This document shows, piece after piece, positions 4,432 through 41,694 of a DNA stretch of 44,015 nucleotides. The notes under the pieces are model-generated. The model had not been told where the DNA came from, searched no databases, and worked only from the letters and a program-made list of their open reading frames with translations. Positions within the stretch are counted from its first letter, which is position 1, and each line of letters starts with the position of its first letter. This stretch comes from Escherichia phage vB_VIPECOTPH05B. The position numbers were made by a program, and so were the translations under genes. The DNA is taken from sequence record PQ429080.1; one strand, given 5' to 3'.

Positions 4432-7400
4432 TTAATCGTCTCCGAAGTTATTGATGATAGCTCGCGTAGGTGCGAATTCCTGTATTAGCGGCACCTGCTT
4501 AGTGAAGGTCTTTATATCCATATTACCGGTAGCCAGGTCCTGTACGGCCCCGAGCAACCCTGTGACGTAACCCATAGATGCCAACGAGTGACGAGGGGAA
4601 TCTCCCAGGAAGATATCCTGCAGTAAGGATACCCCGCCGATGGCACTCATACCCATTACGGACTCGCTGATGAGTTTCTGAGTGTCTACGTCCTTACCAT
4701 CCATGCCATGCTTAGCCATAGTAGCCAGCAGCATTAACGGGAACTGGTACGCCATAATATGGGCTACGCCAATCCACCCAGCGTCGTTCAGCTCTCTGCG
4801 CAGAATCTTGTTAGTGGCTGCCAGTGCGAAGCTCTGGTACCCTACAATGACTTTGCCGATAGGATTGAACTGTGCAAAGTGCGAGGTCTCTCCAGTACGA
4901 ATCTGCTGTACCAGGTAGTCCATCATACGCGTCCCCACAACCTCAACTTGCATCTGCAGGTCCGGCTGGAACATAGCGCCCGGGTTAGCCTTGTTGGCAG
5001 CGATAGCGCGGTCAGCAACATCGCGAGTAAGCCCGAAACGCTCCAGACGCTTAAACGCCTCAGCATCGCCCTTGAACATCTGAGTAAGCTCGTCCGCCAC
5101 AATACCGGAGTTCAGGTTCACCTGTAGCCGGTGCACCATGCTCATACCGTTGACGTGACGGGCAGCCTGCCCAACGTTCTGGGTGACGTTGAACCAGGAG
5201 GCCTGACGGGTCAGGTCCAGGTTATCGTCAGCGTACGTATTCAGCCAGCGGAAGCGCATCTCCTTCTGAATATTACCCCGCAGCACGGTATCTAGACGAG
5301 CAGCCATATCCGGGGTCTTGATAGCCACGGCACCTTCCTTGAACCAAGGCTGGTCACGCATACTGCGCAGCACTCTAGCCATACCGAACTCCTTCATAGC
5401 CAAAGCAGTATCGGTCAGCTGATACAGGCCGGAGTTCTTAAGCATAGTGGCGTTTGCCATATTCCCAGCTGCACGCAGCAAGTCCGGAAGCTGCCCAGCG
5501 TCAGCAGGTGCCCCACCCAGGATAAAGTCGATGGTGTCATTGACGGTCTTCTCCCACTTGGCGGAATCCGCTAGTACGTGCTTAGACTCATCAATCATCT
5601 TGGCGAGCTGTCCCAGGTCCTGTACGCCTGCATAGGCCATACCTACACGTCCAGACATACGGTTAGTGTACCCGTGCATAACCTTGGCTACGTCAGTATC
5701 CATCAGGTCCTGCATGCGCATGCTCTTACCGTTCACCAGATACTCTTTATCCATGTTGAACCGAGTACGCTGGCGCAAGTTCCGCGCAGGGGATGTGCTG
5801 CCGGATTCGCGTACGTTACCAGCCAGGAAGCTCTGGATTGCAGACTCTTCTACACCGGCGCTGCGCATAGCCATAACGACCTCGTCGTTACCCATGCCGT
5901 TAATCAGCTGCTTCCACATAGGGCCAGCCTGCCCAGCACGGCCATTGTAGATGCCGTCAACCATCTCCTTAGCAACACGCTGCACTACCTCTGACTCCAT
6001 GCTCGGGTACACATCCCGCAGGGCGGACCGGAACAGGGCGCGGTAGTCATCCAGGGTATTGCCTTGTGCGATACCTTGGCGCATCTTGTCGTAGCTGTAC
6101 TGGCGCGGGAAGTAGTAGTCGGATTTAACCAACGCACCATCATCCACTAAACCGGCATTGAGCATATGCTCGTGCCACTTGCTAGCCCAGCCAGAGCGGC
6201 GATAGGCGTCAACCAGTGGAGCAATCTCTGCGTCCGGCACCGGCACAGCGCGGCCGTTTACGTCAGCGCTGTAGGCAGCATCCAGGTACTTGCTCAGGCG
6301 GTCTTCCAGCGCAGCCCGCTCAGCGCGGAAATTACTACGATGGAAGAAGCGTGAGAGTACACCTACACCCTTATCCTTCAACGCGCCCAGGATAGCATCT
6401 TCCACTACGCTGGCGCGAGCATCCATCTCCAAAGTTAGGTTACGCTTGTAGTCTACCACTGACGGGCGACGGCCGCCTACTGCGGACGCATCCGACACTA
6501 GCAGTTTAGCCAAGTCTTCGTTGCCTTGGGCGATATTATCGTACAGGGCAAACATAGTGGAGAGCTTCTTCTTAGCGCCGTCCAGCATAGCTTGGGCGCG
6601 CTTAGCCTCATTGAGGGTGGTGCTGCCCGCCAGGTCCTGGAAGGCTTCGCTACGGAAGCTCTGGGCTTGGTCTGCATAATCCTTAGCTGTCCACTTAACT
6701 GCGTCCTCATACGCATCCAGGACATCTTCCAAGGCAGAGCCTTTTGCCTTGATGCCCAGAGCGTTCATGATGTACTCACCCAGTTGGCGGAGCATACTCT
6801 TACCGGTGGGAGACTGCGTACGTGCCAGGTGCTCAACCCACTCAGGGCTGTCGCCTAAGCCTGCCAGCATCTCATGCACATTACTTGCGTAATACCGCAT
6901 ACGCGGTGTCAGGGTGGAGTCAGCCGCAATAACAGCGCGCACTTCCTCCAGGCGTTTAGCAATCTCGGGATTACTGTCAATGGCGCGCGCAGTAGCAGCA
7001 TGAATCAGTTCGTGCACGGCCACCTTGCTTGTATCTGCATCCATAGCGCGCAGCGCATCGCCGACTGTAGTCCAGGTGCTGCCGTTAGCTTGCTTAGGCG
7101 CACGCAGGGATATCTCTCCCCGCTTAGCTAAATCTTGTTGTGCGTAAGTGTAGCGGCTACGGTTTGCGGAGCCTGCTACCAGTTTAAAATCAATGTCATT
7201 TACAGCATCGCCCAGCGTGTACAGAATAGCCTTCTGTCCTGCTGTCAAGTGCTCAGACTTCTTCAAGAACTGAACTACGTGCTGTGCTTTCATGTTCACG
7301 GAGGCGGTATTGTTTCTCGATACTTGGATGCTTTCATCCAGTGTCTTAGTGAGAATTTCCTCTCCCTCTCCTACTCCGGTAACATTAGCATCCCTCGCTG

Positions 7401-8130
7401 TACGAGTTGTAGGCGCTTCTGGGTCGAACATGGGCTCACGCCCAGTACGAGCCTTAGCGGCAGCTTTAGCAGCCCTAGACATATCCCAGAGCTGGTCTAA
7501 CCCAGCTACGCCCGCTATCAGTGCAGTTACCGCGGCGGACTGGCCCAGTTGGTCCTGTGCATAGAACGCAGTGCCTACATCAGCAGCGCGGATAGCGGTA
7601 CGTGCAGCTAAGCCCGCGCGGCCAGCAATACCGGCGGCAGACATCGGGGCCAGGATGAACGGGGAGTCGCCTACCAACATACCCGCGAACCCGGCTACTG
7701 TGTTGTCGGCCATTAAGCGGTCACGGTCACGTTGCTCAAGCATCTGCTGCATGCGGTAGTTGTAATCTTCCACAGACACGGAGTCGTGCAGGTACTCAAT
7801 CTCTTCCTGATTCGGAGCATACAGCTTAGCCCGAGTATCGCTACTCAGGGTCTGCTTAGCATTAAAGTTCGGGTCTCGGTCAAATGCCGGAGCAGAGGCC
7901 TTGCGGATAGCTGCGGCGATTATGCTGTTGCCCATACCTGACGCAAAGCTCTCTGCGGCTGTAGTAGCCGGAGTCTTGGCTTGCGCTAGTAATGAGGCAC
8001 GCTCCAGTGCGTTCAGGCCGTTGTCCCCGGCATCGTTCCAATCTACGCGCTCAGGCGCAGGTTTAAGTGTTGCGCCCTTAGCAGAATCCTTTTCCTGTGG
8101 ATTCGGTTCTTGGTTCAGAAACTGAGCCAT
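4432..8130 (-). CDS. Internal virion (core) protein, largest (T7 gp16 / phiKMV gp37-like)
   Basis: 1232 aa, Ala-rich and predicted helical; third of three consecutive large genes between tail tube B and tail fiber. No transglycosylase motif recognised by eye. Confidence 0.7.
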   Translation of the reverse strand: MAQFLNQEPNPQEKDSAKGATLKPAPERVDWNDAGDNGLNALERASLLAQAKTPATTAAESFASGMGNSIIAAAIRKASAPAFDRDPNFNAKQTLSSDTRAKLYAPNQEEIEYLHDSVSVEDYNYRMQQMLEQRDRDRLMADNTVAGFAGMLVGDSPFILAPMSAAGIAGRAGLAARTAIRAADVGTAFYAQDQLGQSAAVTALIAGVAGLDQLWDMSRAAKAAAKARTGREPMFDPEAPTTRTARDANVTGVGEGEEILTKTLDESIQVSRNNTASVNMKAQHVVQFLKKSEHLTAGQKAILYTLGDAVNDIDFKLVAGSANRSRYTYAQQDLAKRGEISLRAPKQANGSTWTTVGDALRAMDADTSKVAVHELIHAATARAIDSNPEIAKRLEEVRAVIAADSTLTPRMRYYASNVHEMLAGLGDSPEWVEHLARTQSPTGKSMLRQLGEYIMNALGIKAKGSALEDVLDAYEDAVKWTAKDYADQAQSFRSEAFQDLAGSTTLNEAKRAQAMLDGAKKKLSTMFALYDNIAQGNEDLAKLLVSDASAVGGRRPSVVDYKRNLTLEMDARASVVEDAILGALKDKGVGVLSRFFHRSNFRAERAALEDRLSKYLDAAYSADVNGRAVPVPDAEIAPLVDAYRRSGWASKWHEHMLNAGLVDDGALVKSDYYFPRQYSYDKMRQGIAQGNTLDDYRALFRSALRDVYPSMESEVVQRVAKEMVDGIYNGRAGQAGPMWKQLINGMGNDEVVMAMRSAGVEESAIQSFLAGNVRESGSTSPARNLRQRTRFNMDKEYLVNGKSMRMQDLMDTDVAKVMHGYTNRMSGRVGMAYAGVQDLGQLAKMIDESKHVLADSAKWEKTVNDTIDFILGGAPADAGQLPDLLRAAGNMANATMLKNSGLYQLTDTALAMKEFGMARVLRSMRDQPWFKEGAVAIKTPDMAARLDTVLRGNIQKEMRFRWLNTYADDNLDLTRQASWFNVTQNVGQAARHVNGMSMVHRLQVNLNSGIVADELTQMFKGDAEAFKRLERFGLTRDVADRAIAANKANPGAMFQPDLQMQVEVVGTRMMDYLVQQIRTGETSHFAQFNPIGKVIVGYQSFALAATNKILRRELNDAGWIGVAHIMAYQFPLMLLATMAKHGMDGKDVDTQKLISESVMGMSAIGGVSLLQDIFLGDSPRHSLASMGYVTGLLGAVQDLATGNMDIKTFTKQVPLIQEFAPTRAIINNFGDD
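7369..7388 (-). promoter_or_regulatory. Conserved element TTACCGGAGTAGGA, copy 3 (inside the largest internal virion protein gene)
   Basis: 14-nt exact match to the core of the other two copies, same orientation, followed by GAGGGAGAGG. Confidence 0.25.
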
Positions 8131-8180
8131 AATATCTCCTAAAAGAATTTTGATAAGGGGAGGCCCCGAAGGGCCTCTGG

Positions 8181-10865: not shown

Positions 10866-10882
10866 TTAATATTCCTCTTAAG

Positions 10883-11470: not shown

Positions 11471-11471
11471 A

Positions 11472-13832: not shown

Positions 13833-13841
13833 ATACCCTCC

Positions 13842-14447: not shown

Positions 14448-14482
14448 AAAAAAAAGCCCCTGGCACCCGAAGGCACCAGGGG
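14448..14482 (-). terminator. Rho-independent terminator downstream of the capsid gene
   Basis: On the minus-strand transcript: 11-bp stem (CCCCTGGTGCC / GGTGCCAGGGG, two G-U pairs) closed by a UUCG tetraloop and followed by eight U. The stem is poorer on the plus strand, so it is oriented with the genes. Confidence 0.7.
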
Positions 14483-14488
14483 CGCGTA

Positions 14489-18665: not shown

Positions 18666-18929
18666 TTACAGGCCCAGAGGATTGCTCTGCCCTGCTTGTC
18701 GCCGTTTCTTCTGCTCAGATGTAATTGCATCTGCAGATGCAGAGGCAGCCCCTGCTGGGTCAATCTCAGCGATGTTATCTGCGGCGCTATTAGCCTCTAA
18801 GGCAGCCTGTTGTTTCTGTGCAGCTGCAGCTTGTTCTGCTTGCCGCTGCTGTTGTTCTAATCCTGCGTTGTCCGTAAGGCCGAGCATATCCGTGGCCTTG
18901 CCTAACAGTTTACCTAAACCACCACTCAT
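18666..18929 (-). CDS. Hypothetical small protein (87 aa), Q/A-rich
   Basis: ATG start overlaps the stop of the upstream gene (ATGA); position just before the portal is where T7-like phages carry small virion-associated proteins. Confidence 0.4.
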   Translation of the reverse strand: MSGGLGKLLGKATDMLGLTDNAGLEQQQRQAEQAAAAQKQQAALEANSAADNIAEIDPAGAASASADAITSEQKKRRQAGQSNPLGL

Positions 18930-19366
18930 TCTGACCTCACTAAATGATAAGTTGTATTGTATGTGTTATCCGATGCACCTCGGCTAATGGCGATACGCCC
19001 AGCCCGCATACTCTTAGCTATTGCGCGAAGGCCCTGCATAATCACAAGTACCGCCTTACTGTTACCCGGCTTCAATACGAAGAAGTCTGTATACAGCACA
19101 GGCTCTACGTAATGACAGTCCTCTACAGCTTCTGGGTAGTAGCTGACAGCACCGACTAAGTCGCCTTGGGAGTCATAGACTCCTAGTATATACTGTTTAC
19201 CCAGTATGCTGCCCAGTACTCTCCAGTAGTGCTGCTCTGGAGCTAGGCCCCGACTAATGCCGTGGCCCAGTTCGTGCAGTTGCCTCACTGCGTCTGTAAT
19301 GTCGTTAGACTTATACAGAATCTTGAGAGTGTAATCGGAAGTTTTACTAGTGTGTTTTAACTTCAT
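18926..19366 (-). CDS. Hypothetical protein (146 aa), first gene after RNAP
   Basis: ATG with GGAGTAGGA immediately upstream; that upstream sequence is part of a repeated element (see findings). Confidence 0.45.
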   Translation of the reverse strand: MKLKHTSKTSDYTLKILYKSNDITDAVRQLHELGHGISRGLAPEQHYWRVLGSILGKQYILGVYDSQGDLVGAVSYYPEAVEDCHYVEPVLYTDFFVLKPGNSKAVLVIMQGLRAIAKSMRAGRIAISRGASDNTYNTTYHLVRSE

Positions 19367-19388
19367 TCCTACTCCGGTAACTTCATTT
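19367..19388 (-). promoter_or_regulatory. Conserved element AAATGAAGTTACCGGAGTAGGA, copy 2 (candidate phage-RNAP promoter)
   Basis: Between the RNAP stop and the first late-side gene; 21 of 22 nt identical to the copy at 41059..41080. Confidence 0.35.
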
Positions 19389-19389: not shown

Positions 19390-21858
19390 TCAGCAGAAGA
19401 AGAAAGGTGATTCCAATACCTGCCGGATGTCCAGAGTACCAACCTCAGGCATATCCAGGTCCGTCAAATCCGCCCCGGCGGCTGCCGCCGCGCGAGTGAT
19501 ATCCCCAAGCAGGTCGTGCTCTTCATAGAGGCGCACAAACTGTTCTCGGATGTGTCGGTGCAGAGCGTCAACATCGGCTGCATGTGTAGCCAGGGAGTCG
19601 TGAATCGGCACAATGTCCAGACCCTCGGCGGCACATAGAACCATCATCAAGTGTGTACTATCCAGGCTATGCACAAAGTTCGGGGCAATCCCAGAGGCTG
19701 CCTTGCGCTTGTTGCAGGTCTTGAAATCCCGATTATGCACGCGCATGATTGTGAGGTTCATACAGTCAATTCGTACCCGCACTTCTTCACGCTGTGTGTA
19801 GCGGTTCATTACGAGCCCACCCAGTGGCGTATACCACTGCAGGTGCTGGCTTGCCGGTACACGCCTAGCGAGGTTCTGCAAGTACGACATAACTGCCGCA
19901 GCAGCAGGGTTTGCCTCCTCGATAGCGGCGCGCATACGCGGAGCCAGGTAGCACGACAGATTCCATAGACTGTTAGTGTCGGTACCTTCATACCCCTCAG
20001 CGCAAGCGCCTTCAAAGATGTAGTCACTGCAGCTGCGCACCGTGGCGCTGTAGAAGTAGGTCATACTGGGGCGCTTGGTCATACTGCGGGTGATTTCGTT
20101 CTCTCTCCAGTACGTACTTTGGATAACGAAATCCTCCTTGTCCAGGTCCAGTATCACCTTCTCGTCCGTACGGCGCTTCACGTCCATGTACAGGTCCGCT
20201 TTCTTGTCGTTACCCTCCCAGTACAGGTTCGTTAGACGACCTCCCACAGGGTCTCTCAGGAGCGCTGAGAGGTGTTGCCCACCTGAGTTTGTAGCGTCCA
20301 TAGCAACTGGGATTCGGCTAATATGCTCTTCTGGGCATCCAGAACGCACAGCATTAACCAGATCGATAGCGGCCGCCAGAAAACACCAGGGGCTGTCTGC
20401 CTCGGCAAAAGCATGGCAATCAAACGGTGAAACCACAAGCTCTTCGAGCGCTGCAAAGTTCGCATCAACCCAAGCTGCGCGGTCTTCGAATAGGGTTTTG
20501 TCATAACCAAAGCATGTGGCGACGTGTACCTTGAGCCAGAATAGTCCCCGCTCACCCAGAGGTTTTCCTCTGCCAAACTCAAGAAGGGCTTTCTGCAAAT
20601 CAGAACCTTGGGGGTGCAGCGAGGACTTGAAGTACAGGCGGTAGCGCCAGTCCACACAAGTCGGGAAGTACAGTGCTTTCTCATCTTTGAATTCCTCTGC
20701 CATTTCCAACGTAGTCAGAAGGCTGCGCAGTTGCGATACACGCTTACGGTCGGCGCTGTACCATAGGGACATACGCGTCTTCCACTCACCGAAGCGGTCA
20801 AGCTCTTCCTCGGTGTAGTTCTCTTTCGGAACCCCGTCCAGATACCACTCCGGTTTCGGCTCCGGTACTGAGCGAGGCATACCTATCCCAACACCCAGGG
20901 CCCGTGCTTCTTGCACCAGTTCAAGTATGCGCTTATTAATACGGTATGGGGTTTCCTGTGCCTTATTAAGCGCTTTTTTGATGCCATCCGCGGACTTAAA
21001 TGCTTCCGCTACTTCACGGAGACGAGCTCTGTCAATGTGCGAGTTATGATAGGTTCCGCGATTGTCGATAGTGGTGAGGTACCCACCGTCCCACAGAGTA
21101 GTGTGCTGCACCGGCGGTACCAGCATAGGCGGCTTCATGGTTACAGTGTCAGCGGACTCTACCAGTTTCTGGAAGGCCTCCATAACGTCGTCAGCCGGAT
21201 AGAGCATGCTCAGATTCCCGCTACAGTTCTTCCACTGGAACAGTCCCGTCTCAAACACTGCGGCACACAGCAGACGCCCTACGGAGATGTTCTGGGCATT
21301 GGTCCAAGGCTCGTGCCCGTAGTGTACGTTCTCGGCACTGGCACGGAGCGTACGCAGGATGTGCGTAGGGGACTTCGTACGGCGCTCTGTGAGGTACTCA
21401 TACACGCGGTCCATGTACGCTGGGGCTACGTTGCGTAACTGCAGAGCCAGTAGCTCTGACTGTACGTTTCTGCCTAGTGCGGACATTACAGCCTGTGCAG
21501 TCTGACGGCGACTGGCGGACTCGCCGGGGGCGACGCTGAACGCCTCAAACATTGTGCACAGGCTCAGGGTGGTCAGGACATCCAAGGGGATTAAGCGCAG
21601 GAACCGGCGGTACTTCCCACCTATGCCAGGGGCTTTGACATTTCGCATCTCATCTATAGCGGCAGCAGCCACTTCGTATGCCGAAGTGAGCATACGCTGC
21701 GTCATAGGCAGGTTCATAATACCACCGTTCTGCAACGCGTCCGTAATCAGCTTACGTGCCCGCTCGATTCCGCGAATCTTATAGGCCTCTTCAAGCTCCA
21801 GCTGGCGTTTCACCAGTGCTTCCTCTGGTACTACAACCGTATTCAGGGCGCTAATCAT
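19390..21858 (-). CDS. Single-subunit DNA-dependent RNA polymerase (T7 RNAP family)
   Basis: 822 aa; T7-RNAP-like motifs (VAMDATNSGGQHLSALL; late PNFVHSLD/H-D region); located at the end of the replication block, directly upstream of structural genes. Confidence 0.95.
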   Translation of the reverse strand: MISALNTVVVPEEALVKRQLELEEAYKIRGIERARKLITDALQNGGIMNLPMTQRMLTSAYEVAAAAIDEMRNVKAPGIGGKYRRFLRLIPLDVLTTLSLCTMFEAFSVAPGESASRRQTAQAVMSALGRNVQSELLALQLRNVAPAYMDRVYEYLTERRTKSPTHILRTLRASAENVHYGHEPWTNAQNISVGRLLCAAVFETGLFQWKNCSGNLSMLYPADDVMEAFQKLVESADTVTMKPPMLVPPVQHTTLWDGGYLTTIDNRGTYHNSHIDRARLREVAEAFKSADGIKKALNKAQETPYRINKRILELVQEARALGVGIGMPRSVPEPKPEWYLDGVPKENYTEEELDRFGEWKTRMSLWYSADRKRVSQLRSLLTTLEMAEEFKDEKALYFPTCVDWRYRLYFKSSLHPQGSDLQKALLEFGRGKPLGERGLFWLKVHVATCFGYDKTLFEDRAAWVDANFAALEELVVSPFDCHAFAEADSPWCFLAAAIDLVNAVRSGCPEEHISRIPVAMDATNSGGQHLSALLRDPVGGRLTNLYWEGNDKKADLYMDVKRRTDEKVILDLDKEDFVIQSTYWRENEITRSMTKRPSMTYFYSATVRSCSDYIFEGACAEGYEGTDTNSLWNLSCYLAPRMRAAIEEANPAAAAVMSYLQNLARRVPASQHLQWYTPLGGLVMNRYTQREEVRVRIDCMNLTIMRVHNRDFKTCNKRKAASGIAPNFVHSLDSTHLMMVLCAAEGLDIVPIHDSLATHAADVDALHRHIREQFVRLYEEHDLLGDITRAAAAAGADLTDLDMPEVGTLDIRQVLESPFFFC

Positions 21859-21978
21859 AGGCGCTTAGTCTCCTTGGTTATGTCCGGTACTTCTAACTAC
21901 TGATTGCGACTTACCCAGAGATTGTACATCTCCAGGTAGTTTTTAGCGGCGAGTTCGTCGCCGCGCTCTACTGCTTTC

Positions 21979-21995
21979 TGCCACATCATGTGGCA
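21979..21995 (-). promoter_or_regulatory. Perfect 17-bp palindrome (TGCCACAT-C-ATGTGGCA) upstream of the RNAP gene
   Basis: 8-bp arms; lies 4 nt downstream of the stop of gene 22000..22461 and about 120 nt upstream of the RNAP start. Confidence 0.3.
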
Positions 21996-21999
21996 CCAC

Positions 22000-22461
22000 T
22001 CACTTGGCGTCAATGCACTTACCTCGGTGCTGCTCGTACAGTTCTGAGTACTTGTCGGACTTGGCAATGTCCTGCTCCAGCTTATCCTTGTTCCCGGCGC
22101 GCAGTCTGTACTTGAGCCGATTCCCTAAGCAGTAGCCGTAGAACTGCTCTTGTGTCATGCTGCGTGCAATGACCTCAATCGCCTCCAGGTCCGGGAAGAA
22201 CTGGTAGTGCTGAGGGGAGTTTACTGCGTCAGGCGCTTTCGGAGTACTTTTCGGCAGTCTCGTCGTACTAATCAGTTGGAAGCAGTCAGGGTCCCACGTG
22301 TGACCGTTACAGCCCTCCAGTATTAAAAGGCCGTGAAATGTGTCTGTAACAACAAGAGGGTGCCCGTCCGACATGCCTAGTTCGTGGCAGAATTGAGCCC
22401 AGTGTGGTTTCCTATGTTGTGCAAGGCGCATAACTACATCACCTTCTTTGAACTTACTCAT
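22000..22461 (-). CDS. Hypothetical protein, member 3 of the MSKFK-G-D-VV paralog family; C-terminus DUF3310-like
   Basis: 153 aa; N-terminus MSKFKEGDVVMR shared with two other genes; C-terminal HYQFFPDLEAIEVIARSMTQEQFYGYCLGNRLKYRLRAGNKDKLEQDIAKSDKY recalls the phage DUF3310 pattern (from memory, unverified). Confidence 0.5.
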   Translation of the reverse strand: MSKFKEGDVVMRLAQHRKPHWAQFCHELGMSDGHPLVVTDTFHGLLILEGCNGHTWDPDCFQLISTTRLPKSTPKAPDAVNSPQHYQFFPDLEAIEVIARSMTQEQFYGYCLGNRLKYRLRAGNKDKLEQDIAKSDKYSELYEQHRGKCIDAK

Positions 22462-26661: not shown

Positions 26662-27687
26662 TTATTTAGAACGACCAACCCAACGACCATCGTCGTCGAG
26701 CAGCATCGGAATTAACTGCGGGCAACCCTCAGTGATTACCATCACACCCAGGATTGGTTTCTTGCGGGTGAGCCTGCCATAAGCAAAGGCCATACTCTTG
26801 CGGTCAATTAGACACCCTGCGTACGCCCCGAAGTACAACGCCATGCTGCTAGCCGCATATTGGACCTCGAAGCGGCCATGCTCATGCCCCAACACCAGAG
26901 AGGTGCGCTCATGGGATGCATTGAGCATGAAATCACCGCTGACTTGATGCTGGAACCGTACAGGCCCCAGCGGTGTATTGAGCACCCAAGCATCGGCCCA
27001 CGACCACGCCGGAGCACCGTGCTCAGGGAATAGGATATCCCGGTACTTCTTGATAAATTGCACTGGCAAACCGTGAGCTTTAGCGCGGCGATATACGAGT
27101 GAACCATGATTGGAATCGCAAACCAGTAGGTTCGGGAATAGTTCATGCAGCTCCTCCAGTACGAGCTTGGCTTTCTCCAGCTCAACCCCGGCGCTGTCCA
27201 GGTTAGGGTCAGAGTCATGGAAGCTGATAGCGTGCCCGTCGGTTTCGTCACCAACCTGCACTACCATGTCCGGGCAGTACGCATCACGTACGCTCTCAAG
27301 GAATGGCATAGCGTCTACGTGGGTATACGGAGCGTGCAGGTCTCCTACCACCAGGATGCGGTGGCACATGTCCGGCACCTTTGTATTCCCGATATCGTCC
27401 GTTGGGCTTGGTTGGATTAGCTTACGCGCCGCCTGCAGCCCGCGGTTGGCACTGGCCTTGCTGCCCTTGTTATCCATGAATATGCTGCGCCAGTAGCGCA
27501 CAAGCTGGCGGGATACACTAATGTCCGTATCCACATCCCCACGGTTGTCCAGCTCCTGGTTGTAGTACTGCGCGGCCAGGGCGTTGTCAAGGTACTGACC
27601 TAGGATTGCCTGGTGCTGCTCTTTGGTGAATAGTTTTATTAGACTGACTCTAGCCAAGGTTGCCTCTCTTGTGTTGTTCCTACTCAT
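26662..27687 (-). CDS. Calcineurin-like metallophosphoesterase with an N-terminal extension of about 100 aa
   Basis: 341 aa; motifs VVGDLHAPY, GDETDGH, DSNHG, GHEHGRF match the metallophosphatase signature; no obvious SD before the ATG. Confidence 0.75.
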   Translation of the reverse strand: MSRNNTREATLARVSLIKLFTKEQHQAILGQYLDNALAAQYYNQELDNRGDVDTDISVSRQLVRYWRSIFMDNKGSKASANRGLQAARKLIQPSPTDDIGNTKVPDMCHRILVVGDLHAPYTHVDAMPFLESVRDAYCPDMVVQVGDETDGHAISFHDSDPNLDSAGVELEKAKLVLEELHELFPNLLVCDSNHGSLVYRRAKAHGLPVQFIKKYRDILFPEHGAPAWSWADAWVLNTPLGPVRFQHQVSGDFMLNASHERTSLVLGHEHGRFEVQYAASSMALYFGAYAGCLIDRKSMAFAYGRLTRKKPILGVMVITEGCPQLIPMLLDDDGRWVGRSK

Positions 27688-27818
27688 ATCACATTAATTT
27701 GCTGAGAATCACAGAATCAAGCCAGAGTCAACAAATAATTTTATTTAATTATTTAGTTGACCCTAGTGTATTTCCATGCTACCCTAACCCCCTACACCAC
27801 TCAAGGATCCACCTATCA
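27688..27818 (-). promoter_or_regulatory. AT-rich intergenic region with imperfect inverted repeat (GTCAACAAATAA ... TTATTTAGTTGAC)
   Basis: 131 bp with no ORF in a genome where most genes overlap; AT content well above the rest; repeat arms at about 27727..27738 and 27749..27761; TTGACT/TTGATT -35-like hexamers on the minus strand. Confidence 0.35.
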
Positions 27819-30391: not shown

Positions 30392-30392
30392 A

Positions 30393-32991: not shown

Positions 32992-33773
32992 TGTAAAGCC
33001 TCCAGAATCTCTTTGATTGTTGCATCCTTAGGGTCCGCAGCGAAGTAATGCTCACGGCACTGCATGAACGGACGCAGTGCTCGACGTGCTGCTGCTACCC
33101 CAGCGTGCCCTGCCGGGTCATTGTCCAGCATCAGAATCACTTCCGGGCGATTCTGAATCAGCCAAGCCCTCAGCGGCGTGGGCAAGCGTGTACCCAGCAT
33201 AGCTATAGCCTGCACGTTCAACGCACTGTAGTTCGTAACTGCGTGCTGTATCTTCCGGGCTGAGAGTAAGTCCTCGGTAAGCACGACCTTTAGAGGCGCG
33301 GCCGCAGCTACAGCCGGTGCTACGGCAGGTGCCGCGACAGCGAAAGCTATTGGCTGGCCGTACATTACCCACTTCGGTTGCTGCCGAGCATGCACTGCAC
33401 GGCCCAGAGCAGCGCTTCCGACACGGAAGATTATCCGCTGTTTCTCTTTGCTCCATTCTGCATCCTCCACCATTTCAGGCATGATTCCCTTTGTGGTCAG
33501 GAATCCGTAAATAAAACTCTGCGTTTCCGCAGGCGCTTGGCTAATGCAAATTGCATCTGCAGGTGCAGAGGGCTGCACCCTCGGCTCTTCCTGTAACTGT
33601 ATGCGCTGGTACTGCTTGTGCTCCTTGCCCACCTGCTTGCAGCGGTGGCAATAATATTCCCAGGCATCCGGGTTATTGTAGAGCACCCCGGCTTCGTCCC
33701 TGCCGCAGCACCGAAAGCGCGCCCTCTGCCCCACGGCCAGGCGCTTGCACGCTCTAAGCCAGGGTTGGTCCAT
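32988..33773 (-). CDS. DNA primase (zinc-binding domain plus TOPRIM)
   Basis: 261 aa; Cys pairs in the N-terminus (CCGRDEAG ... CHRCK) and TOPRIM-like acidic motif (VILMLDNDPAG); encoded separately from the helicase. Confidence 0.8.
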   Translation of the reverse strand: MDQPWLRACKRLAVGQRARFRCCGRDEAGVLYNNPDAWEYYCHRCKQVGKEHKQYQRIQLQEEPRVQPSAPADAICISQAPAETQSFIYGFLTTKGIMPEMVEDAEWSKEKQRIIFRVGSAALGRAVHARQQPKWVMYGQPIAFAVAAPAVAPAVAAAAPLKVVLTEDLLSARKIQHAVTNYSALNVQAIAMLGTRLPTPLRAWLIQNRPEVILMLDNDPAGHAGVAAARRALRPFMQCREHYFAADPKDATIKEILEALQ

Positions 33774-34470: not shown

Positions 34471-34472
34471 AA

Positions 34473-35869: not shown

Positions 35870-35873
35870 ATCA

Positions 35874-37202: not shown

Positions 37203-37248
37203 TTTAATTTGCTCCTGGGTTAGTTGTATTTCATCGTACGTTAAGAGT

Positions 37249-37593: not shown

Positions 37594-37799
37594 GAGCAGT
37601 CCCTGAATATTACGTTCCGGGCCACTAGGGTGCTGCGGTCACTAGATATTAACCCACCAACCTTGTGCCCGGATGGTATCCACCGCTGCAAACGCTCTGC
37701 ATAGAACTCCGCGCGCTTATGCAGTGGGCCATCAAGTACAACCCTGTATAGTAACCCATTCGGGCGCTTGTATACGTCATACAGGTTCTGTTTGCTCAT
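37581..37799 (-). CDS. Hypothetical protein (72 aa)
   Basis: ATG overlaps the stop of the upstream small ORF (ATGA). Confidence 0.45.
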   Translation of the reverse strand: MSKQNLYDVYKRPNGLLYRVVLDGPLHKRAEFYAERLQRWIPSGHKVGGLISSDRSTLVARNVIFRDCSCSQ

Positions 37800-37975
37800 A
37801 CAATACCCCTTACATTAAACCGTAAGCAGTAGCCGCGCAGGGTCATACCCAGGCGCTGCGCTTGCTTCTCATAGTGCTGGCGCAGCGCTGCCTTCGCGTT
37901 GTACTCGCGCGCCAGTCCGTCTATTGTTGGTTGCTGCTTATGCATCAGCAGCGTCTCAGGATTCTTTCCGTGCAT
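37796..37975 (-). CDS. Small hypothetical protein (59 aa), basic
   Basis: Hand-translated: MHGKNPETLLMHKQQPTIDGLAREYNAKAALRQHYEKQAQRLGMTLRGYCLRFNVRGIV; GAGGT 7 nt upstream of ATG. Confidence 0.3.
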   Translation of the reverse strand: MHGKNPETLLMHKQQPTIDGLAREYNAKAALRQHYEKQAQRLGMTLRGYCLRFNVRGIV

Positions 37976-37983
37976 ACCCTACC

Positions 37984-38247
37984 TCAAATATCGTTGTTGC
38001 TCTTACCGTCCACCGTGAGCGTTACAGCGGCGTCCGGGTACTGCTCTTGCACCGCCGCAAGGATACGTGCGCCCAGCTCTTTGCAACCACCGTCCGGGTT
38101 CTCAAAGAGGTCATAGTCAGGGCGTGACTGCGGCTCCTGCGCCGCCGGTTGCTGTAACTGCACTGTGCAATATGGCACCGGGTTGTTTACGTCGTTGCCC
38201 AGCACCAACATAGCGCTAGTCACAATAATGTTGAATACGTTAACCAT
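37984..38247 (-). CDS. Small protein with N-terminal hydrophobic segment (about 87 aa)
   Basis: Start at internal ATG (M11 of the track ORF) with GGAG 9 nt upstream; MVNVFNIIVTSAMLVLG resembles a signal peptide or TM anchor. Confidence 0.4.
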   Translation of the reverse strand: MVNVFNIIVTSAMLVLGNDVNNPVPYCTVQLQQPAAQEPQSRPDYDLFENPDGGCKELGARILAAVQEQYPDAAVTLTVDGKSNNDI

Positions 38248-38461
38248 AGAGTTGTCTCCAGTCGTTGATAATACCAAGATTCACGGCGTCCAGCACAGTG
38301 CGGGCAGCCATTTCGGTGTAGGTATCCACAAATTCTAAAGGGGATTCCTGATTAGTGTCTTTGTCAGAGAATATAACCACAGTGTAGTTGTATTCCTCGT
38401 ATACCCGATTGCACCACACAGGCCAGAGTTCATGGCCCGGATAGACCAGTATTGCTTTCAT
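38240..38461 (-). CDS. Hypothetical protein (about 73 aa)
   Basis: Start at second ATG (M5) with GAGG 6 nt upstream; immediately downstream of hairpin copy A. Confidence 0.45.
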   Translation of the reverse strand: MKAILVYPGHELWPVWCNRVYEEYNYTVVIFSDKDTNQESPLEFVDTYTEMAARTVLDAVNLGIINDWRQLYG

Positions 38462-38490
38462 ATGAAACCTCATACTCCAGTTGCATTCAC

Positions 38491-38512
38491 ATAGCGCCCC
38501 GTAGGACGCTAT
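38491..38512 (-). promoter_or_regulatory. Conserved intergenic hairpin, copy A
   Basis: Minus-strand RNA AUAGCGUCC-UACG-GGGGCGCUAU: 9-10 bp stem with a UACG tetraloop; about 27 of 30 nt identical to copy B. Confidence 0.45.
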
Positions 38513-38522
38513 AGGCTTGCTA

Positions 38523-38696
38523 CTAAAGCACGCTTATACCGATACGTGAATAGAAGTCGCTGAGCTTAATCAAGCCCGCCGTGATGGTGTTCTGGAGGCT
38601 AGGCCGCGCCAGCGACTTCTGTGCAGCACTGGGTTTACGCTTGCTACGCATTTCAGCAGCATCAGCACGACGTTGGGCACGGTTACGGTATGGCAT
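38523..38696 (-). CDS. Small basic protein (57 aa)
   Basis: Hand-translated: MPYRNRAQRRADAAEMRSKRKPSAAQKSLARPSLQNTITAGLIKLSDFYSRIGISVL; AAGGAGAG 7 nt upstream of ATG; Arg/Lys-rich. Confidence 0.35.
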   Translation of the reverse strand: MPYRNRAQRRADAAEMRSKRKPSAAQKSLARPSLQNTITAGLIKLSDFYSRIGISVL

Positions 38697-38895
38697 AGTT
38701 TACTCTCCTTTGTTGTGGCATGATTGCCCTCTAGGGTACTCGTTAGAATACCCTATGAGAAATCACGCTAGAGATACTCACCCAATCCCTCGTACACCCA
38801 TTTTTGAGCGATTGCCCGCATAGGGATATCGAAGGCGTCCGCATCGTTCGCTGCGGGGCACAGGGCCCACCACTTGATAACCGGGACTTTATAAA

Positions 38896-39471
38896 TCATG
38901 CTGCCACCTTCAAAGTTGCGTCCAGTACAGCGCGTACATCCACGCCCTGATTGATAAGCATGCTCACCAAATCAGAGTCGCTTACGCCAGTCTCTTTAGC
39001 CTTCTTGATAGCGTTTTTAACGCGCCCCAGCGCCTGCAGGCGCACTGCATCGGCATCCAGTGCGTCATTCTTCACCTGCTCCGCTTCGGCGGCGTACAGG
39101 GCCATACAGGAGCTATAGAAGCTGGCTACAATCACTTCGCGGCCCTGCTTGTCAGCTTGTTTATAGTCCAGACGCATAGTGTCCAGTTCAATGCCCAGCT
39201 TCTCTGCCGAGGCGTAGCACTTCTTCGCGTTGAATTCGTACTTACCGGACTCTTTATTGAACTTGATAGGCAGCAGAGTACGCAGCACCATATCGAAGTC
39301 AGCAGCATCACTGCGCTGCATATCCGTAGCCCATGAGATGTTGCTGCTAATCAGGCCGTGAAAGAGCGCGCTGATAGTGATGTTACGTTTTGCTTCCACT
39401 ACGTCACCCAGCGCTTTGCGAATGCTGCCCGCAGCAGTGAGCTTGAATACTTTACCAGTTGAATGAGTCAT
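38896..39471 (-). CDS. Hypothetical early protein (191 aa)
   Basis: ATG with GAGGTG upstream; downstream of hairpin copy B; no recognisable motif. Confidence 0.5.
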   Translation of the reverse strand: MTHSTGKVFKLTAAGSIRKALGDVVEAKRNITISALFHGLISSNISWATDMQRSDAADFDMVLRTLLPIKFNKESGKYEFNAKKCYASAEKLGIELDTMRLDYKQADKQGREVIVASFYSSCMALYAAEAEQVKNDALDADAVRLQALGRVKNAIKKAKETGVSDSDLVSMLINQGVDVRAVLDATLKVAA

Positions 39472-39518
39472 AATGCACCTCGTTGATTGTTGGTTGTTTA
39501 CTTATCGAATTACTTCAC

Positions 39519-39540
39519 ATAGCACCCCATAGGATGCTAT
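39519..39540 (-). promoter_or_regulatory. Conserved intergenic hairpin, copy B
   Basis: Same stem-loop as copy A; one stem base pair is G:C in A and A:T in B (both partners changed), so pairing is preserved. Confidence 0.45.
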
Positions 39541-39549
39541 AGGCTGTAA

Positions 39550-39765
39550 TTAACGTCCGAACTGTCCGGCAGTGTACCAACCTTGCGGAGCCTTGCTGCT
39601 GCCCTTTGTTTTGGTCTTACCACGCACATTCGTGCTGAACGTGGCGGATTGCTTAGTCCGCATATACCCTGCGCGGTTCAGTGCATCCCGGCGCTTTCTC
39701 AATTCCGAACCGGATAACTTCTCCAGCCCAGCGAATTGCTGCGCTAACTTCTCACGATATTTCAT
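39550..39765 (-). CDS. Hypothetical small basic protein (about 71 aa), first gene after the ORF-free leader
   Basis: Start at first ATG (M6 of the track ORF) with AAGGAG 6 nt upstream; K/R-rich. Confidence 0.45.
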   Translation of the reverse strand: MKYREKLAQQFAGLEKLSGSELRKRRDALNRAGYMRTKQSATFSTNVRGKTKTKGSSKAPQGWYTAGQFGR

Positions 39766-40033
39766 TGCGTACTCCTTCAAAGTTAATGATTAACGCCCTA
39801 GCAGTATCTAGCAGGACGCTAACTCTTAACCTTGTTACCCACTGCACTACCGTGGAACCTGTGGTCAGGTCTCGGCGCTATTCTTTTAAGGGGCAGCGCC
39901 TCAGCGCCCCAGCCGTTTGTCGTCTCTGCTCTTGACGTTACATCTTTAATGCTACTGATTGTCTAGGATTGGTCGTCATCGTACCAGTCAAGGTACTGGG
40001 CCTCCCCGCAAACCAGCTTACTGCTTGCTATCT

Positions 40034-40062
40034 AAGTTACTCAGTGAATCAGAACTTGTCAA
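40034..40062 (-). promoter_or_regulatory. Candidate sigma70-type early promoter (TTGACA - 17 nt - TAACTT)
   Basis: Perfect -35 hexamer, 17-nt spacer, weak -10; in the ORF-free leader about 250 nt upstream of the first early gene. Confidence 0.3.
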
Positions 40063-40263
40063 GCGTTTATTTCTTACTGCATCGGGAGCCTGTTAACCTC
40101 CCCTGTGAGCTGTAGCCCCTCAGCGGGCGACTCTCTGGCTCCTGCCTTGCTCCACCACGGTGGGACACTTGCCGGGCTAGTCACGCCCTTGTTGGGTTGT
40201 AGTACCCTTCGGAACTGCTACCGTGGGAGCCGGTAGCGACCCTTACTACTTACTTCGGGATTC

Positions 40264-40292
40264 AATCTAGCTTATGTTCTTCGCGGTGTCAA
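40264..40292 (-). promoter_or_regulatory. Candidate sigma70-type early promoter (TTGACA - 17 nt - TAGATT) with A-rich upstream tract
   Basis: Minus strand reads GATAAAAAGAG-TTGACA-CCGCGAAGAACATAAGC-TAGATT; perfect -35, 17-nt spacer, 4 of 6 at -10. Confidence 0.4.
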
Positions 40293-40461
40293 CTCTTTTT
40301 ATCGAGTATCTAACCCTTCACACTATCTAGCCTTAATCCGGCGGAGCCTCCCGGCTAGGCCCCGGTTAGCCTAGCTAGTCGCTAGTGCCTCCCGGTGATT
40401 GAACTATAGCCCTATAGAACCAAAAGAAGCAAGCACTATTTTCAACTTTTTATCTCTGAGA

Positions 40462-40494
40462 GCAAAAAGGGTAAGCAGACCCCTAAAGGTCTGC
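40462..40494 (-). terminator. Possible terminator-like hairpin at the 3' end of the HNH gene
   Basis: GCAGACC-6 nt loop-GGTCTGC stem overlapping the HNH stop codon, followed on the minus transcript by UUACCCUUUUUG. Confidence 0.3.
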
Positions 40495-40869
40495 GTGCAG
40501 TAAGCTATTGTAATCCCCATAGGTTACGTCGAACTCTCGCCAGTTAGTGTCGTAGTCCGGACTAGCCAATAACTCCTCTTTTGTGAAACATCTCCCCTCC
40601 TTAATCTGCGCTAGGTGAATGGCGCGGTGAGTGTCGGCGCTAACCAATATCAGGTTATCAAAGGCGCAGTTAAGACGGTTACTGTCACAGTGATGTACAT
40701 GGTAGCCAGAGCCGTAGCTAGTGATACCCAGTGCATCCATAACCACGGCTCTATGCAGCGCCATAGTCCTACGGTCCTTTTTACCGTTCTTACGTATACA
40801 CGCTGGACCAGCACCGTTAATCACTGGATAGCCCTCTTTATCAACCACAATCTTAAATGTTCTAGCCAC
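40483..40869 (-). CDS. HNH endonuclease (third HNH gene in the window)
   Basis: 128 aa; HVHHCDSNRLNCAFDNLILVSADTHRAIH motif; apparent GTG start with TAAGGAG 8 nt upstream; flanked by the two longest ORF-free stretches. Confidence 0.7.
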   Translation of the reverse strand: MARTFKIVVDKEGYPVINGAGPACIRKNGKKDRRTMALHRAVVMDALGITSYGSGYHVHHCDSNRLNCAFDNLILVSADTHRAIHLAQIKEGRCFTKEELLASPDYDTNWREFDVTYGDYNSLLHADL

Positions 40870-40879
40870 AACAATAACT

Positions 40880-41694
40880 CCTTACATAGTGATGAGTAGC
40901 GTAACCATAGCGACGATATCCCGGAGGGATAGGAGCGGAGGTTACAAGATTCTAGGGATAGCAGCCTACTGCGTAGGCACAGGGCTATCCTAGTGAATAC
41001 CTAGTAGGGACTAGTAAGGACTAGTATTAAGTAGTGTGTATATAGTGCCCTAAAACCCTCCTACTCCGGTTACTTCATTTCATAATAGCTTTCGAATGAA
41101 AGTAAGAGCAAAGGGATAGCATTGGGATAGCGCTGGGATAGCGGCAGAGTGTGGATGTGCGCCCTAGTGGGGAGCGCGCAGCGTAGCATATAATTAGCAC
41201 AATGTAAAGCCCCAAGGATAGCCAGTGGATAGCCTAGTGCATACTAGGGATAGCACTAGGGATAGCACCACAGCGCACTAGCTGGCCCACTAGGCAGGCA
41301 CAAAATAAGCAAGGCAGAGCGCACCCCTATGGCCCACAGGGAGCGCACAGGGAGCGCCTAGTGAACGCACAGGGATAGCACCAGTGCCCCATAGAGCGCA
41401 CAGGAAGCCCTACAAGGCACGCACAGGCAAAGCCATAGGGTAGCACTAGCAATAGCCCTAGCGCAGCGCAGAGAGCCACTGAGGCCCACTGGTGCGCCCT
41501 AGCAGGCCCACCCAGTGCCCCCCCCCTAAATTGGCGCTAGGCACCCCCTATGGGGGCAATTGGGCGCGCTGAGGGTGAGGGACCCTGCCGCGTGAGTATA
41601 ATAAATTTCGGGTTCAGGTATAGACGTGCACCCGGATAGCCCCAGATAGCCCCACATAGACGCCCAGTGCTTACTCTAGTACTTACCCTAGCAC
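40880..41694. repeat. ORF-free repeat-rich region: at least 10 copies of GGATAGC plus CACAGGG/CACTAGG motifs, a C9 homopolymer and short tandem repeats; probable genome-terminus region
   Basis: No ORF of 60 aa or more on either strand across about 800 bp; GGATAGC at about 40956, 41114, 41125, 41136, 41216, 41227, 41248, 41259, 41373, 41634 (first three tandem copies spaced 11 bp); C-run at 41518..41526. Confidence 0.6.
41059..41080 (-). promoter_or_regulatory. Conserved element AAATGAAGTAACCGGAGTAGGA, copy 1 (candidate phage-RNAP promoter)
   Basis: 21 of 22 nt identical to the copy after the RNAP gene; lies in the repeat region upstream of the HNH gene. Confidence 0.35.

What the first reader, a model, noticed from the sequence alone, without database searches (positions are those of the whole stretch)
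7369..41080. Repeated 14-22 bp element that may be the phage-RNAP promoter
AAATGAAGT(T/A)ACCGGAGTAGGA occurs at 19367..19388 (between the RNAP gene and the first late-side gene) and at 41059..41080 (terminal repeat region); a 14-nt exact core match occurs inside the largest internal virion protein gene at 7369..7388. All are on the minus strand. The placement (start of late region, within late region, near genome end) parallels how T7-type promoters are distributed.
Basis: partly seen in the sequence, partly recalled or inferred. Interest (0 to 1): 0.65.

Follow-up and report, generated by a model that had tools for sequence, protein, structure and literature searches.

The report
KP34-type phage RNA polymerase promoters
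The repeated element is real and is this Klebsiella phage's version of the promoter read by its own RNA polymerase, a promoter type already shown by experiment in the close relative KP34, so the finding is correct but largely known.

Summary
The window is a Klebsiella Drulisvirus (KP34-like) genome with its genes on the minus strand. The three copies exist as described and are far beyond chance.

They are positional and sequence orthologues of the KP34 strong promoter T(A/G)ATGTTACAGGAGTA. Lu et al. 2019 defined that promoter by in vitro transcription and 5'-RACE, and it occurs at the same three places: about 500 nt from the left genome end, directly before the gene after the RNA polymerase gene, and about 745 nt inside the large internal virion protein gene.

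The window carries a variant with C at -7. In 59 related loci this base tracks four residues of the polymerase specificity loop without exception: TIMR with C, SAVL with A. All three promoters of a genome always share the same -7 base (18 of 18 genomes). The copy inside a gene is frozen at synonymous sites (1 of 7 variable, against 91 of 99 in the flanks).

The third copy is a full promoter, not just a core.

By-product: Klebsiella lambdoid prophages carry this same 19-mer behind T7-like and SP6-like promoters, in front of a tiny hydrophobic ORF. This may be a phage-polymerase "tripwire". I found no description of it.

The parts
41059..41080 (-). P1, the left-end promoter. The 16-mer TGAAGTAACCGGAGTA is at 41077..41062, with the predicted start G at 41061 (GGAGGG...). 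It lies about 500 nt from the physical left end and about 770 nt upstream of the sigma-70 early promoter.
   Evidence: Orthologue of KP34 S2 (nt 475-490), which is active in vitro. The same context is conserved in 23 distinct relatives.
19367..19388 (-). P2, the promoter between the RNAP gene and the first late-side gene. The 16-mer TGAAGTTACCGGAGTA is at 19385..19370, with the predicted start G at 19369, only 3 nt before the ATG at 19366. GGAG at -6..-3 doubles as a Shine-Dalgarno sequence for read-through transcripts.
   Evidence: The KP34 orthologue is at 22197-22212 with the 5'-RACE start at 22213 and the gp38 ATG at 22216. The GGAGTAGG(A/G)ATG junction is present in 63 of 66 related loci. 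The other three lack it because the locus ends inside RNAP, an insertion displaces it, or the RNAP is only 57% identical.
7369..7390 (-). P3, the intragenic promoter 743 nt inside the 1232-aa internal virion protein gene. The 16-mer TAATGTTACCGGAGTA is at 7387..7372, with the predicted start G at 7371. It encodes A-N-V-T-G-V-G, and -7 is the synonymous third base of the Thr codon.
   Evidence: KP34 orthologue at 33721-33736.
19390..21858 (-). Single-subunit RNA polymerase gene (822 aa), the enzyme predicted to read the promoters.
   Evidence: phmmer against T7 RNAP gives E=2e-68.
19741..19752 (-). Codons for RNAP residues 703-706 (T-I-M-R) in the specificity loop. This tetrapeptide covaries with promoter base -7.
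   Evidence: The alignment to T7 places R706 at T7 R756, R696 at R746, D698 at N748 and H708 at Q758.
27678..27699 (-). P4, a fourth degenerate promoter-like site, AATTAATGTGATATGAGTAGGA, in an AT-rich intergenic region. It lies 20 nt upstream of a TTG start at 27657. Its function is unresolved.
   Evidence: PWM score 19.9 bits against a shuffle maximum of 10.9. TAATGTGATACGAGTAGGA is invariant in 52 of the 59 typed loci (one-base variants in two more, including the window), whatever the RNAP class. Sequence context.
19418..19437 (-). Counterpart of the KP34 'weak promoter' inside the RNAP 3' end: ACTCTGGACATCCGGCAGGT, 3 mismatches to the KP34 sequence.
   Evidence: The region varies freely among relatives, so there is no sign of extra constraint.
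14456..14483 (-). Stem of the conserved rho-independent terminator after the capsid gene block. It lies between P2 and P3.
   Evidence: Exact match to the terminator tabulated by Eriksson et al. 2015.
40264..40292 (-). Predicted sigma-70 early promoter TTGACACCGCGAAGAACATAAGCTAGATT, downstream of P1.
   Evidence: Exact match to the host promoter tabulated by Eriksson et al. 2015.

Best explanation
The three copies are promoters for the phage's own T7-family single-subunit RNA polymerase. They belong to the KP34 (Drulisvirus) strong-promoter class.

Proposed mechanism:
- Host RNA polymerase transcribes the early and middle genes, including the RNAP gene at 19390-21858.
- The phage enzyme then binds the duplex 16-mer at -16..-1. 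Its specificity-loop hairpin (about residues 693-712) reads the core around -11..-7.
- It opens the GAGTA|GG region and starts with G at +1 (GGA).

Roles of the three sites:
- P2 starts the late, virion operon.
- P3, beyond the post-capsid terminator, re-supplies transcripts for the tail fibre, terminase and lysis genes.
- P1, near the left end, lets the phage enzyme transcribe from upstream of the host promoters.

This phage uses a specificity variant with C at -7. It is matched by Thr-Ile-Met-Arg at RNAP 703-706, where KP34 has A at -7 and Ser-Ala-Val-Leu.

Shown here: sequence, synteny, conservation, covariation. Shown by others for KP34 only: promoter activity and start site in vitro. Inferred: activity in this phage, the Arg706-guanine contact, and the division of labour among P1-P3.
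For: 1. Orthology to an experimentally defined promoter. KP34 has three 16-mers at the same three locations, with the start site immediately after GTA (coordinates checked). The window 16-mers match at 13, 14 and 15 of 16 positions.
2. The element occurs three times, always on the coding strand, in every complete Drulisvirus contig examined.
3. Covariation with the polymerase. In 59 loci, -7 A (28 loci) goes with SAVL and -7 C (31 loci) with TIMR at RNAP 703-706. No other column separates the groups. These residues align inside the T7 specificity loop. With the loop masked, the trait needs at least 6 changes on the RNAP tree.
4. P1 and P3 lie 22 and 12 kb from the RNAP gene, yet share the -7 base of P2 in 18 of 18 genomes.
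5. P3 lies in a coding region. Only 1 of 7 synonymous sites varies in the element, against 91 of 99 in the flanks (Fisher p = 1e-5), and the one variable site is -7.
6. P2 stays glued to the downstream ATG even when an HNH gene or another gene is inserted after RNAP.
7. Independent context. The same 19-mer, with both -7 variants, is strictly conserved in Klebsiella prophages. There it lies beside promoters of two other phage RNAP lineages, while the flanks diverge.
Against: - No transcript 5' ends or in vitro transcription exist for this phage or for any -7C / TIMR enzyme. The KP34 data are in vitro only.
- The complement CCTACTCCGG equals the 3' half of the phiKMV nick consensus, so a second DNA-level role is not excluded.
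- P2-initiated mRNA would have a 3-nt leader before the first gene, which is odd for translation.
- By the phmmer alignment, the covarying Arg706 aligns with T7 R756. From my own knowledge of the T7 complex, R756 contacts -9, not -7. The proposed contact therefore needs a 2-nt register shift, or the loop alignment is imprecise.
- A fourth conserved look-alike (P4) does not follow the covariation rule.
Confidence: 0.93

Rival explanations
1. The sites are recognition sequences for localized single-strand nicks in packaged DNA, as in phiKMV-like Pseudomonas phages. That role could replace promoter function or sit alongside it.
For: The phiKMV-group nick consensus is CGACxxxxxCCTA/CTCCGG on the non-coding strand (Kulakov 2009, quoted in PMC3517423). 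All three window sites read CCTACTCCGG on the non-coding (+) strand.
Against: - The CGAC half is absent at all three sites.
- About half of the genus has CCTACTCCTG instead, and the difference tracks the RNAP loop, which a nickase model does not predict.
- In the close relative fHe-Kpn01, PhageTerm and S1 nuclease found one nick, at nt 7873. That position falls in CCCTCTGCA|CCTGCAGATGCAATT, not at its promoters at 483, 22074 and 33614.
- In LUZ19 the mapped promoter motif differs from the nick motif.
Confidence: 0.07
2. The repeat is a translation-initiation cassette (a Shine-Dalgarno GGAG plus the start of a gene) that has been duplicated.
For: At P2, GGAG lies 7 nt before the ATG at 19366. 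AATGAAGTTA occurs both inside the element and at the start of the downstream gene.
Against: P1 is followed by no start codon. P3 lies in frame inside a 1232-aa gene. The conserved block extends 10 nt upstream of GGAG, and -7 covaries with the RNA polymerase.
Confidence: 0.02
3. The sites bind some other phage protein involved in replication or packaging, not RNA polymerase.
For: P1 sits in the non-coding left-end region beside an array of GCTATCC repeats and a conserved 20-nt upstream block. T7 promoters near genome ends also serve replication and maturation (own knowledge).
Against: In vitro, KP34 RNAP alone starts from the 16-mer cloned in pUC19. The covariation is with RNAP residues. The element is co-opted in prophages next to other phage RNAP promoters.
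Confidence: 0.04

Closest known systems
KP34 strong promoter S1/S2, T(A/G)ATGTTACAGGAGTA (Lu et al. 2019, Front Microbiol 10:2487). The KP34-like promoter class was later mined in 135 genomes by PhageProm (NAR 2025, PMC11880802).
   Same: Same genus and a 96%-identical RNAP. The same three genomic positions and strand, the same GGA start region, and 13-15 of 16 identical bases.
   Different: C instead of A at -7 in all three copies, matched by TIMR instead of SAVL in the specificity loop. P1 and P2 carry TGAAG instead of TAATG/TGATG at -16..-12, and P1 has A instead of T at -10. This variant has not been tested biochemically, and I found no published statement of the loop / -7 rule.
T7 class III promoters and T7 phiOL (Studiervirinae)
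   Same: Works the same way: a short duplex promoter of about 17-19 bp read by a single-subunit RNAP through a specificity loop, with a G start. One copy lies near the left end upstream of the host promoters, as T7 phiOL lies ahead of A1-A3 (own knowledge). Other copies head and punctuate the late region.
   Different: Unrelated sequence (no CACTATAG). Only 3 (perhaps 4) copies, against about 17 in T7. The RNAP gene sits mid-genome, directly before the late genes.
LUZ19/phiKMV phage-specific promoters GgtTATGTCACacACAnnGG (Putzeys et al. 2024, PMC10914365)
   Same: Few copies per genome. Some lie directly after the RNAP gene and one in the structural region.
   Different: Different motif. LUZ19 has one antisense copy, whereas all window copies are on the coding strand.
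phiKMV-group nick consensus CGACxxxxxCCTA/CTCCGG (Kulakov et al. 2009)
   Same: The 10-nt half CCTACTCCGG is identical and lies on the non-coding strand.
   Different: There is no CGAC half. The only nick reported in a Drulisvirus maps elsewhere.

Membership tests
KP34-type (Drulisvirus) strong promoter | 16-nt sequence T(A/G)ATGTTACAGGAGTA directly followed by a G start | tested here: met
   P3 matches at 15 of 16, P2 at 14 of 16 and P1 at 13 of 16 positions, and all are followed by GGA. The differences fall at -13 and -7 (and -10 in P1); those at -13 and -7 also vary among the promoters of relatives.
KP34-type (Drulisvirus) strong promoter | The genome encodes a KP34-like single-subunit RNAP | tested here: met
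   822-aa ORF, 96% identical to KP34 RNAP (locus L016). T7 RNAP family, E=2e-68.
KP34-type (Drulisvirus) strong promoter | Three syntenic copies on the coding strand: about 0.5 kb from the left end, immediately upstream of the gp38 homologue, and inside the gp48 homologue | tested here: met
KP34-type (Drulisvirus) strong promoter | Specific initiation by the cognate RNAP at the G after GTA | not testable with these tools
   Shown only for KP34, in vitro. No data exist for this phage.
KP34-type (Drulisvirus) strong promoter | Promoter bases co-evolve with the RNAP specificity loop | tested here: met
   59 of 59 loci concordant between -7 and residues 703-706. 18 of 18 genomes concordant across P1-P3.
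T7-group (Studiervirinae) promoter | Consensus TAATACGACTCACTATAG or close variants (CACTATAG/CACTAAAG core) | tested here: not met
   None of the three sites has a CACTATAG core. The mechanism is analogous but the promoter family is different.
phiKMV-type nick site | Full consensus CGAC-N5-CCTA/CTCCGG on the non-coding strand | tested here: not met
   Only the CCTACTCCGG half is present.
phiKMV-type nick site | A physical single-strand interruption in virion DNA at the site | not testable with these tools
   In the relative fHe-Kpn01 the one detected nick is at nt 7873, away from its three promoters.

The most novel reading that the evidence does not exclude
This promoter is also used as bait by the host's prophages. 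Klebsiella pneumoniae lambdoid prophages carry a module between the lysis cassette and the terminase genes, on the strand opposite to the prophage late genes. I saw it in 12 IMG/VR loci and in about 5 GenBank temperate phages such as MK714353.

The module holds three tandem promoters. They match the RNA polymerases of the three Autographiviridae lineages that infect Klebsiella:
- T7/K11/T3-like
- Molineuxvirinae, AATAGTGGCGAGTATAGA
- KP34-like, TAATGTTACCGGAGTAGGA, identical to the window's P3 over 19 nt

After the promoters come a 70-nt leader, a strong ribosome-binding site and an unannotated 35-38-codon hydrophobic ORF.

Reading: a tripwire that expresses a small membrane peptide only when a virulent podophage's own polymerase appears, giving abortive infection or exclusion. 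Both -7 variants occur in these modules, as if they track the phage polymerase classes.
Probability: 0.45. Interest if true: 0.85.

Novelty: new member of a known kind. Interest (0 to 1): 0.3.

Why it matters
For the phage itself, the result gives a transcription map that can be annotated. There are three RNAP promoters with predicted start sites, one terminator and one host promoter. It also replaces the older, probably wrong, "phage promoter" annotation of this genus.

The loop / -7 rule (SAVL with A, TIMR with C) is a natural orthogonal polymerase-promoter pair. The two forms differ by four adjacent residues and one base. This is directly useful for engineering KP34-type in vitro transcription systems, which are valued for clean 3' ends.

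The prophage three-promoter module, if it works as proposed, would be a defence logic that senses a virus by the virus's own transcription machinery. It would bear on the choice of therapeutic Klebsiella podophages.

Tried and rejected
It was rerun with TRAWGTWACMGGAGTAGG.
- I looked for the promoter used for phiBO1E RNAP in Takatsuki et al. 2025, and for the PhageProm lists. The supplements are not held as text.
- The KP34 "weak promoter" counterpart at 19418-19437 has 3 mismatches and lies in freely varying coding sequence. It is not counted as a part of the system.
- Other hits with up to 3 mismatches (2386, 33586 and 38473 on the minus strand; 7960, 26257 and 32574 on the plus strand) score 8.3 bits or less. 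The hit at 38473 is the outer stem of an RNA hairpin. All were rejected as promoters.
- The sequence TTTTAGGGCACTATATAC just downstream of P1 resembles the K11-type promoter AATTAGGGCACACTATAGGGA but is out of register by 2 nt. It was not pursued.
- Nick-site hypothesis: checked against fHe-Kpn01 and found unsupported.
- The small prophage ORFs have no Pfam or NCBIfam match, and Rfam finds nothing in the module. They are too short for the large protein search.
- Four full-text literature searches for a phage-RNAP-promoter tripwire found nothing. The library is incomplete, so this is weak evidence of novelty.
- I did not predict the RNAP structure. The fold tools return no residue-level mapping that would settle the loop register.


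Full report
**What the window is**

The RNAP region is 100% identical to Klebsiella phage vB_VIPKPNMC07C (PQ505478) and 95-96% identical to SU503, fHe-Kpn01, Kp2 and phiBO1E. All of these are Drulisvirus (KP34-like), Slopekvirinae, Autographiviridae. All long ORFs are on the minus strand.

The window is a circular permutation with one collapsed copy of the terminal repeat. The first bases of fHe-Kpn01 and KP34 align to about window 41580. The sequence before their right-hand repeat aligns to 41629-41581.

**Observation**

The three copies are present as stated. On the minus strand they read:
- AAATGAAGTTACCGGAGTAGGA at 19388..19367
- AAATGAAGTAACCGGAGTAGGA at 41080..41059
- TGCTAATGTTACCGGAGTAGGA at 7390..7369

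No shuffle of the window gives even one match to the 22-mer with up to 3 mismatches. A weight matrix built from relatives scores the three sites at 31-35 bits, against a maximum of 10.9 bits in shuffles.

The copy at 19.4 kb fills the 23-nt gap between the RNAP stop (19392-19390) and the next ATG (19366). The copy at 7.4 kb is 743 nt inside the 1232-aa internal virion protein gene. The copy at 41 kb is about 500 nt from the left genome end and inside the repeat's inner edge, so it is not within the terminal repeat.

**Identity**

Lu et al. 2019 purified KP34 RNAP. They mapped transcripts starting at KP34 nt 22213, right behind the RNAP gene. They showed that the 16-mers TAATGTTACAGGAGTA (nt 22197-22212 and 33721-33736) and TGATGTTACAGGAGTA (nt 475-490) each drive transcription, while the shared 14-mer is much weaker.

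I confirmed those coordinates in the KP34 record. RNAP is at 19723-22191, gp38 starts at 22216, and the third copy is 743 nt inside gp48.

The window 16-mers are TGAAGTAACCGGAGTA, TGAAGTTACCGGAGTA and TAATGTTACCGGAGTA. They differ from KP34 by A to C at -7 in all three, by T to A at -13 in P1 and P2, and by T to A at -10 in P1. Position, strand and the GGA start region are the same. By homology the starts are at 41061, 19369 and 7371.

The class has since been mined computationally: 467 KP34-like promoters in 135 genomes. An older prediction for this genus, AGCCTATAGCGTCCTACGGGGCGCTATGTGAA, is a different element.

**New evidence that the element works with the polymerase**

I fetched 65 related loci around the RNAP gene and 120 loci around exact promoter matches.

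1. In 63 of 66 loci the promoter abuts the ATG of the gp38 homologue as GGAGTAGG(A/G)ATG. This holds even where a 365- or 501-nt gene is inserted after RNAP. The three exceptions are a truncated locus, a locus with an insertion in RNAP, and one distant relative (57% identity).
2. Among 59 full-length polymerases, -7 is A in 28 and C in 31.
   - The only alignment columns that separate the two groups are residues 703-706: S-A-V-L with A and T-I-M-R with C. Residues 703, 704 and 706 are exception-free, and 705 has two exceptions.
   - Apart from two rare changes at 688-689, these are the only variable positions in the whole loop region.
3. phmmer alignment to T7 RNAP puts this segment in the specificity loop. 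Window R696, D698, R706 and H708 align with T7 R746, N748, R756 and Q758. From my knowledge of the T7-promoter complex of Cheetham et al. 1999, these are the four base-contacting residues.
   - Gain of an arginine together with a C:G pair fits the usual arginine-guanine contact on the template strand.
   - The register is uncertain: T7 R756 reads -9, and the loop here is 5 residues shorter.
4. With the loop masked, the trait needs at least 6 changes on a neighbour-joining tree of the polymerases, yet it never separates from -7.
   - P2 lies only about 360 nt from the loop codons, so linkage could explain that pair.
   - P1 and P3, 22 and 12 kb away, carry the same -7 base as P2 in 18 of 18 genomes.
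5. P3 is coding (A-N-V-T-G-V-G). Across 26 distinct sequences, 1 of 7 synonymous positions in the element varies, against 91 of 99 in the 300 flanking bases (p = 1e-5). The one variable position is -7, the third base of the Thr codon.

Positions -15 and -13 vary freely without regard to the enzyme. This fits the equal activity of KP34 S1 and S2.

**How it most likely works**

Host polymerase starts at the sigma-70 promoter at 40292-40264 and transcribes as far as the RNAP gene. The phage enzyme then starts at P2 and transcribes the head genes up to the conserved terminator at 14483-14456. P3 restarts transcription for the tail fibre, terminase and lysis genes. P1 lies upstream of the host promoter, in the position of T7 phiOL (own knowledge). 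It allows phage-polymerase transcription of the whole genome. Its exact role is inferred, not shown.

One oddity is conserved in nearly every relative. P2 transcripts carry only GGA before the first AUG. The GGAG at -6..-3 can serve as a ribosome-binding site only on read-through transcripts.

**Rivals**

The complement CCTACTCCGG equals half of the nick consensus of phiKMV-like phages. Several points count against a nick site:
- The CGAC half is missing.
- Half the genus has CCTACTCCTG.
- The one nick found in fHe-Kpn01 (nt 7873) maps to a different repeat, CCCTCTGCA|CCTGCAGATGCAATT, and not to its promoters at 483, 22074 and 33614.

A duplicated ribosome-binding cassette cannot explain P1 or P3.

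**Search for further copies**

One more site stands out: 27699..27678, AATTAATGTGATATGAGTAGGA, at 19.9 bits. It lies in an AT-rich intergenic region 20 nt before a TTG start. Its form TAATGTGATACGAGTAGGA is invariant in 52 of the 59 typed loci, with one-base variants in two more (including the window). It does not follow the -7 rule.

It shares both ends of the promoter but not the specificity core. I cannot say whether it is a weak phage promoter, a host promoter or something else. All other hits are at chance level.

**Comparison and novelty**

This is a member of a known, experimentally founded promoter class. It works like T7 promoters but is not a T7-group promoter in sequence.

What I did not find in the papers read is the explicit pairing of -7 A/C with SAVL/TIMR. 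Eriksson et al. 2015 noted two specificity-loop groups but tied them to the wrong motif.

**By-product**

The IMG/VR scan also returned 12 contigs of a different kind. They are Klebsiella lambdoid prophages. The GenBank relatives are ST13-OXA48phi12.5, RCIP0114, Kp4864-1 and ST101-KPC2phi6.1, and the module is rare in E. coli, at 5 of 5426 genomes.

Between the lysis genes and the terminase genes, on the opposite strand, they carry in order:
- a palindrome;
- a T7-group promoter in several natural variants: GACTCACTATAG, AATTAGGGCCCACTATAG and AACTCACTAAAG. These match Klebsiella Studiervirinae phages;
- AATAGTGGCGAGTATAGA, which is the 12-copy, same-strand motif of Klebsiella Molineuxvirinae phage F5M1D and occurs 7-10 times in about 20 similar phages;
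- 20-25 nt later, TAATGTTACCGGAGTAGGA. One locus has the -7A form and one has TGAAG;
- a 70-nt leader, AAGGAGG, and a 35-38-codon hydrophobic ORF in at least three unrelated sequence types. It has no family match.

The promoters are conserved while the spacers and the ORF diverge. The simplest reading is a sensor of phage polymerases that drives a small membrane peptide.

Caveat: the ORF's 3' end overlaps a lysC-like gene on the other strand. An antisense-RNA output therefore cannot be excluded. Four literature searches found no description.

Noticed in passing
Not in the window. Loci L069, L108, L114, L123 (11880-12210), L128, L129, L130 (3100-3480), L143, L155, L176, L177, L186; GenBank MK714353 19553-20102: Klebsiella lambdoid prophages carry three tandem promoters, for T7-like, Molineuxvirinae and KP34-like phage RNA polymerases. 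They are followed by a strong ribosome-binding site and an unannotated 35-38-aa hydrophobic ORF, antisense to the prophage lysis genes. The KP34-type 19-mer is identical to the window's P3. This may be a phage-polymerase tripwire, and I found no description of it in four searches.
   Followed up: partly
window 27678-27699 (-): A fourth promoter look-alike, AATTAATGTGATATGAGTAGGA, in an AT-rich intergenic region. It is invariant in nearly all relatives (52 of 59 typed loci) but keeps the same core whatever the RNAP class. It scores 19.9 bits against a shuffle maximum of 10.9. Its function is unknown.
   Followed up: partly
window 38486-38517 and 39514-39545 (-): Two copies of AGCCTATAGCGTCCTACGGGGCGCTATGTGAA, published in 2015 as the 'putative phage promoter' of this genus. 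They fold into long interrupted hairpins (z = -5.4 and -2.3), with a compensatory G-C to A-U change between the copies. They look more like RNA processing or structure sites in the early transcript than promoters.
   Followed up: partly
window 33549-33571 and 18723-18745 (+): The 23-nt repeat AATTGCATCTGCAG(G/A)TGCAGAGG. The first copy corresponds to the only nick mapped in the relative fHe-Kpn01 (nt 7873). These two sites, not the promoters, are therefore the candidate nick sites of this phage.
   Followed up: partly
window 40832-41640 (-), densest at 41120-41266: 11 of the 18 minus-strand copies of GCTATCC(C) cluster in the non-coding left-end region. They include runs spaced 11-12 nt apart, ending about 40 nt upstream of P1. 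This is an iteron-like array of unknown role. A conserved block, CTTACTTTCATTCGAAAGCTA, lies between the array and P1.
   Followed up: no
window 41030-41058 (-): Directly after P1, the conserved sequence GGGTTTTAGGGCACTATATACAC resembles the K11/KP32-type promoter AATTAGGGCACACTATAGGGA. It is 2 nt out of register, so it may be a relic or a coincidence.
   Followed up: no
Related loci L001, L003, L008, L018, L023, L026, L032-L034, L037, L043, L058, L059: In many relatives an extra gene (an HNH endonuclease or another ORF, 365 or 501 nt) is inserted between the RNAP stop and P2. The window has none. L051 and L052 have an insertion inside the RNAP gene itself.
   Followed up: no
window 26662-27687 (-): The mechanical ORF starts at an ATG inside the P4 element. 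The real start is more likely the in-frame TTG at 27657, which is preceded by AAGAGAGG, as in relatives.
   Followed up: no
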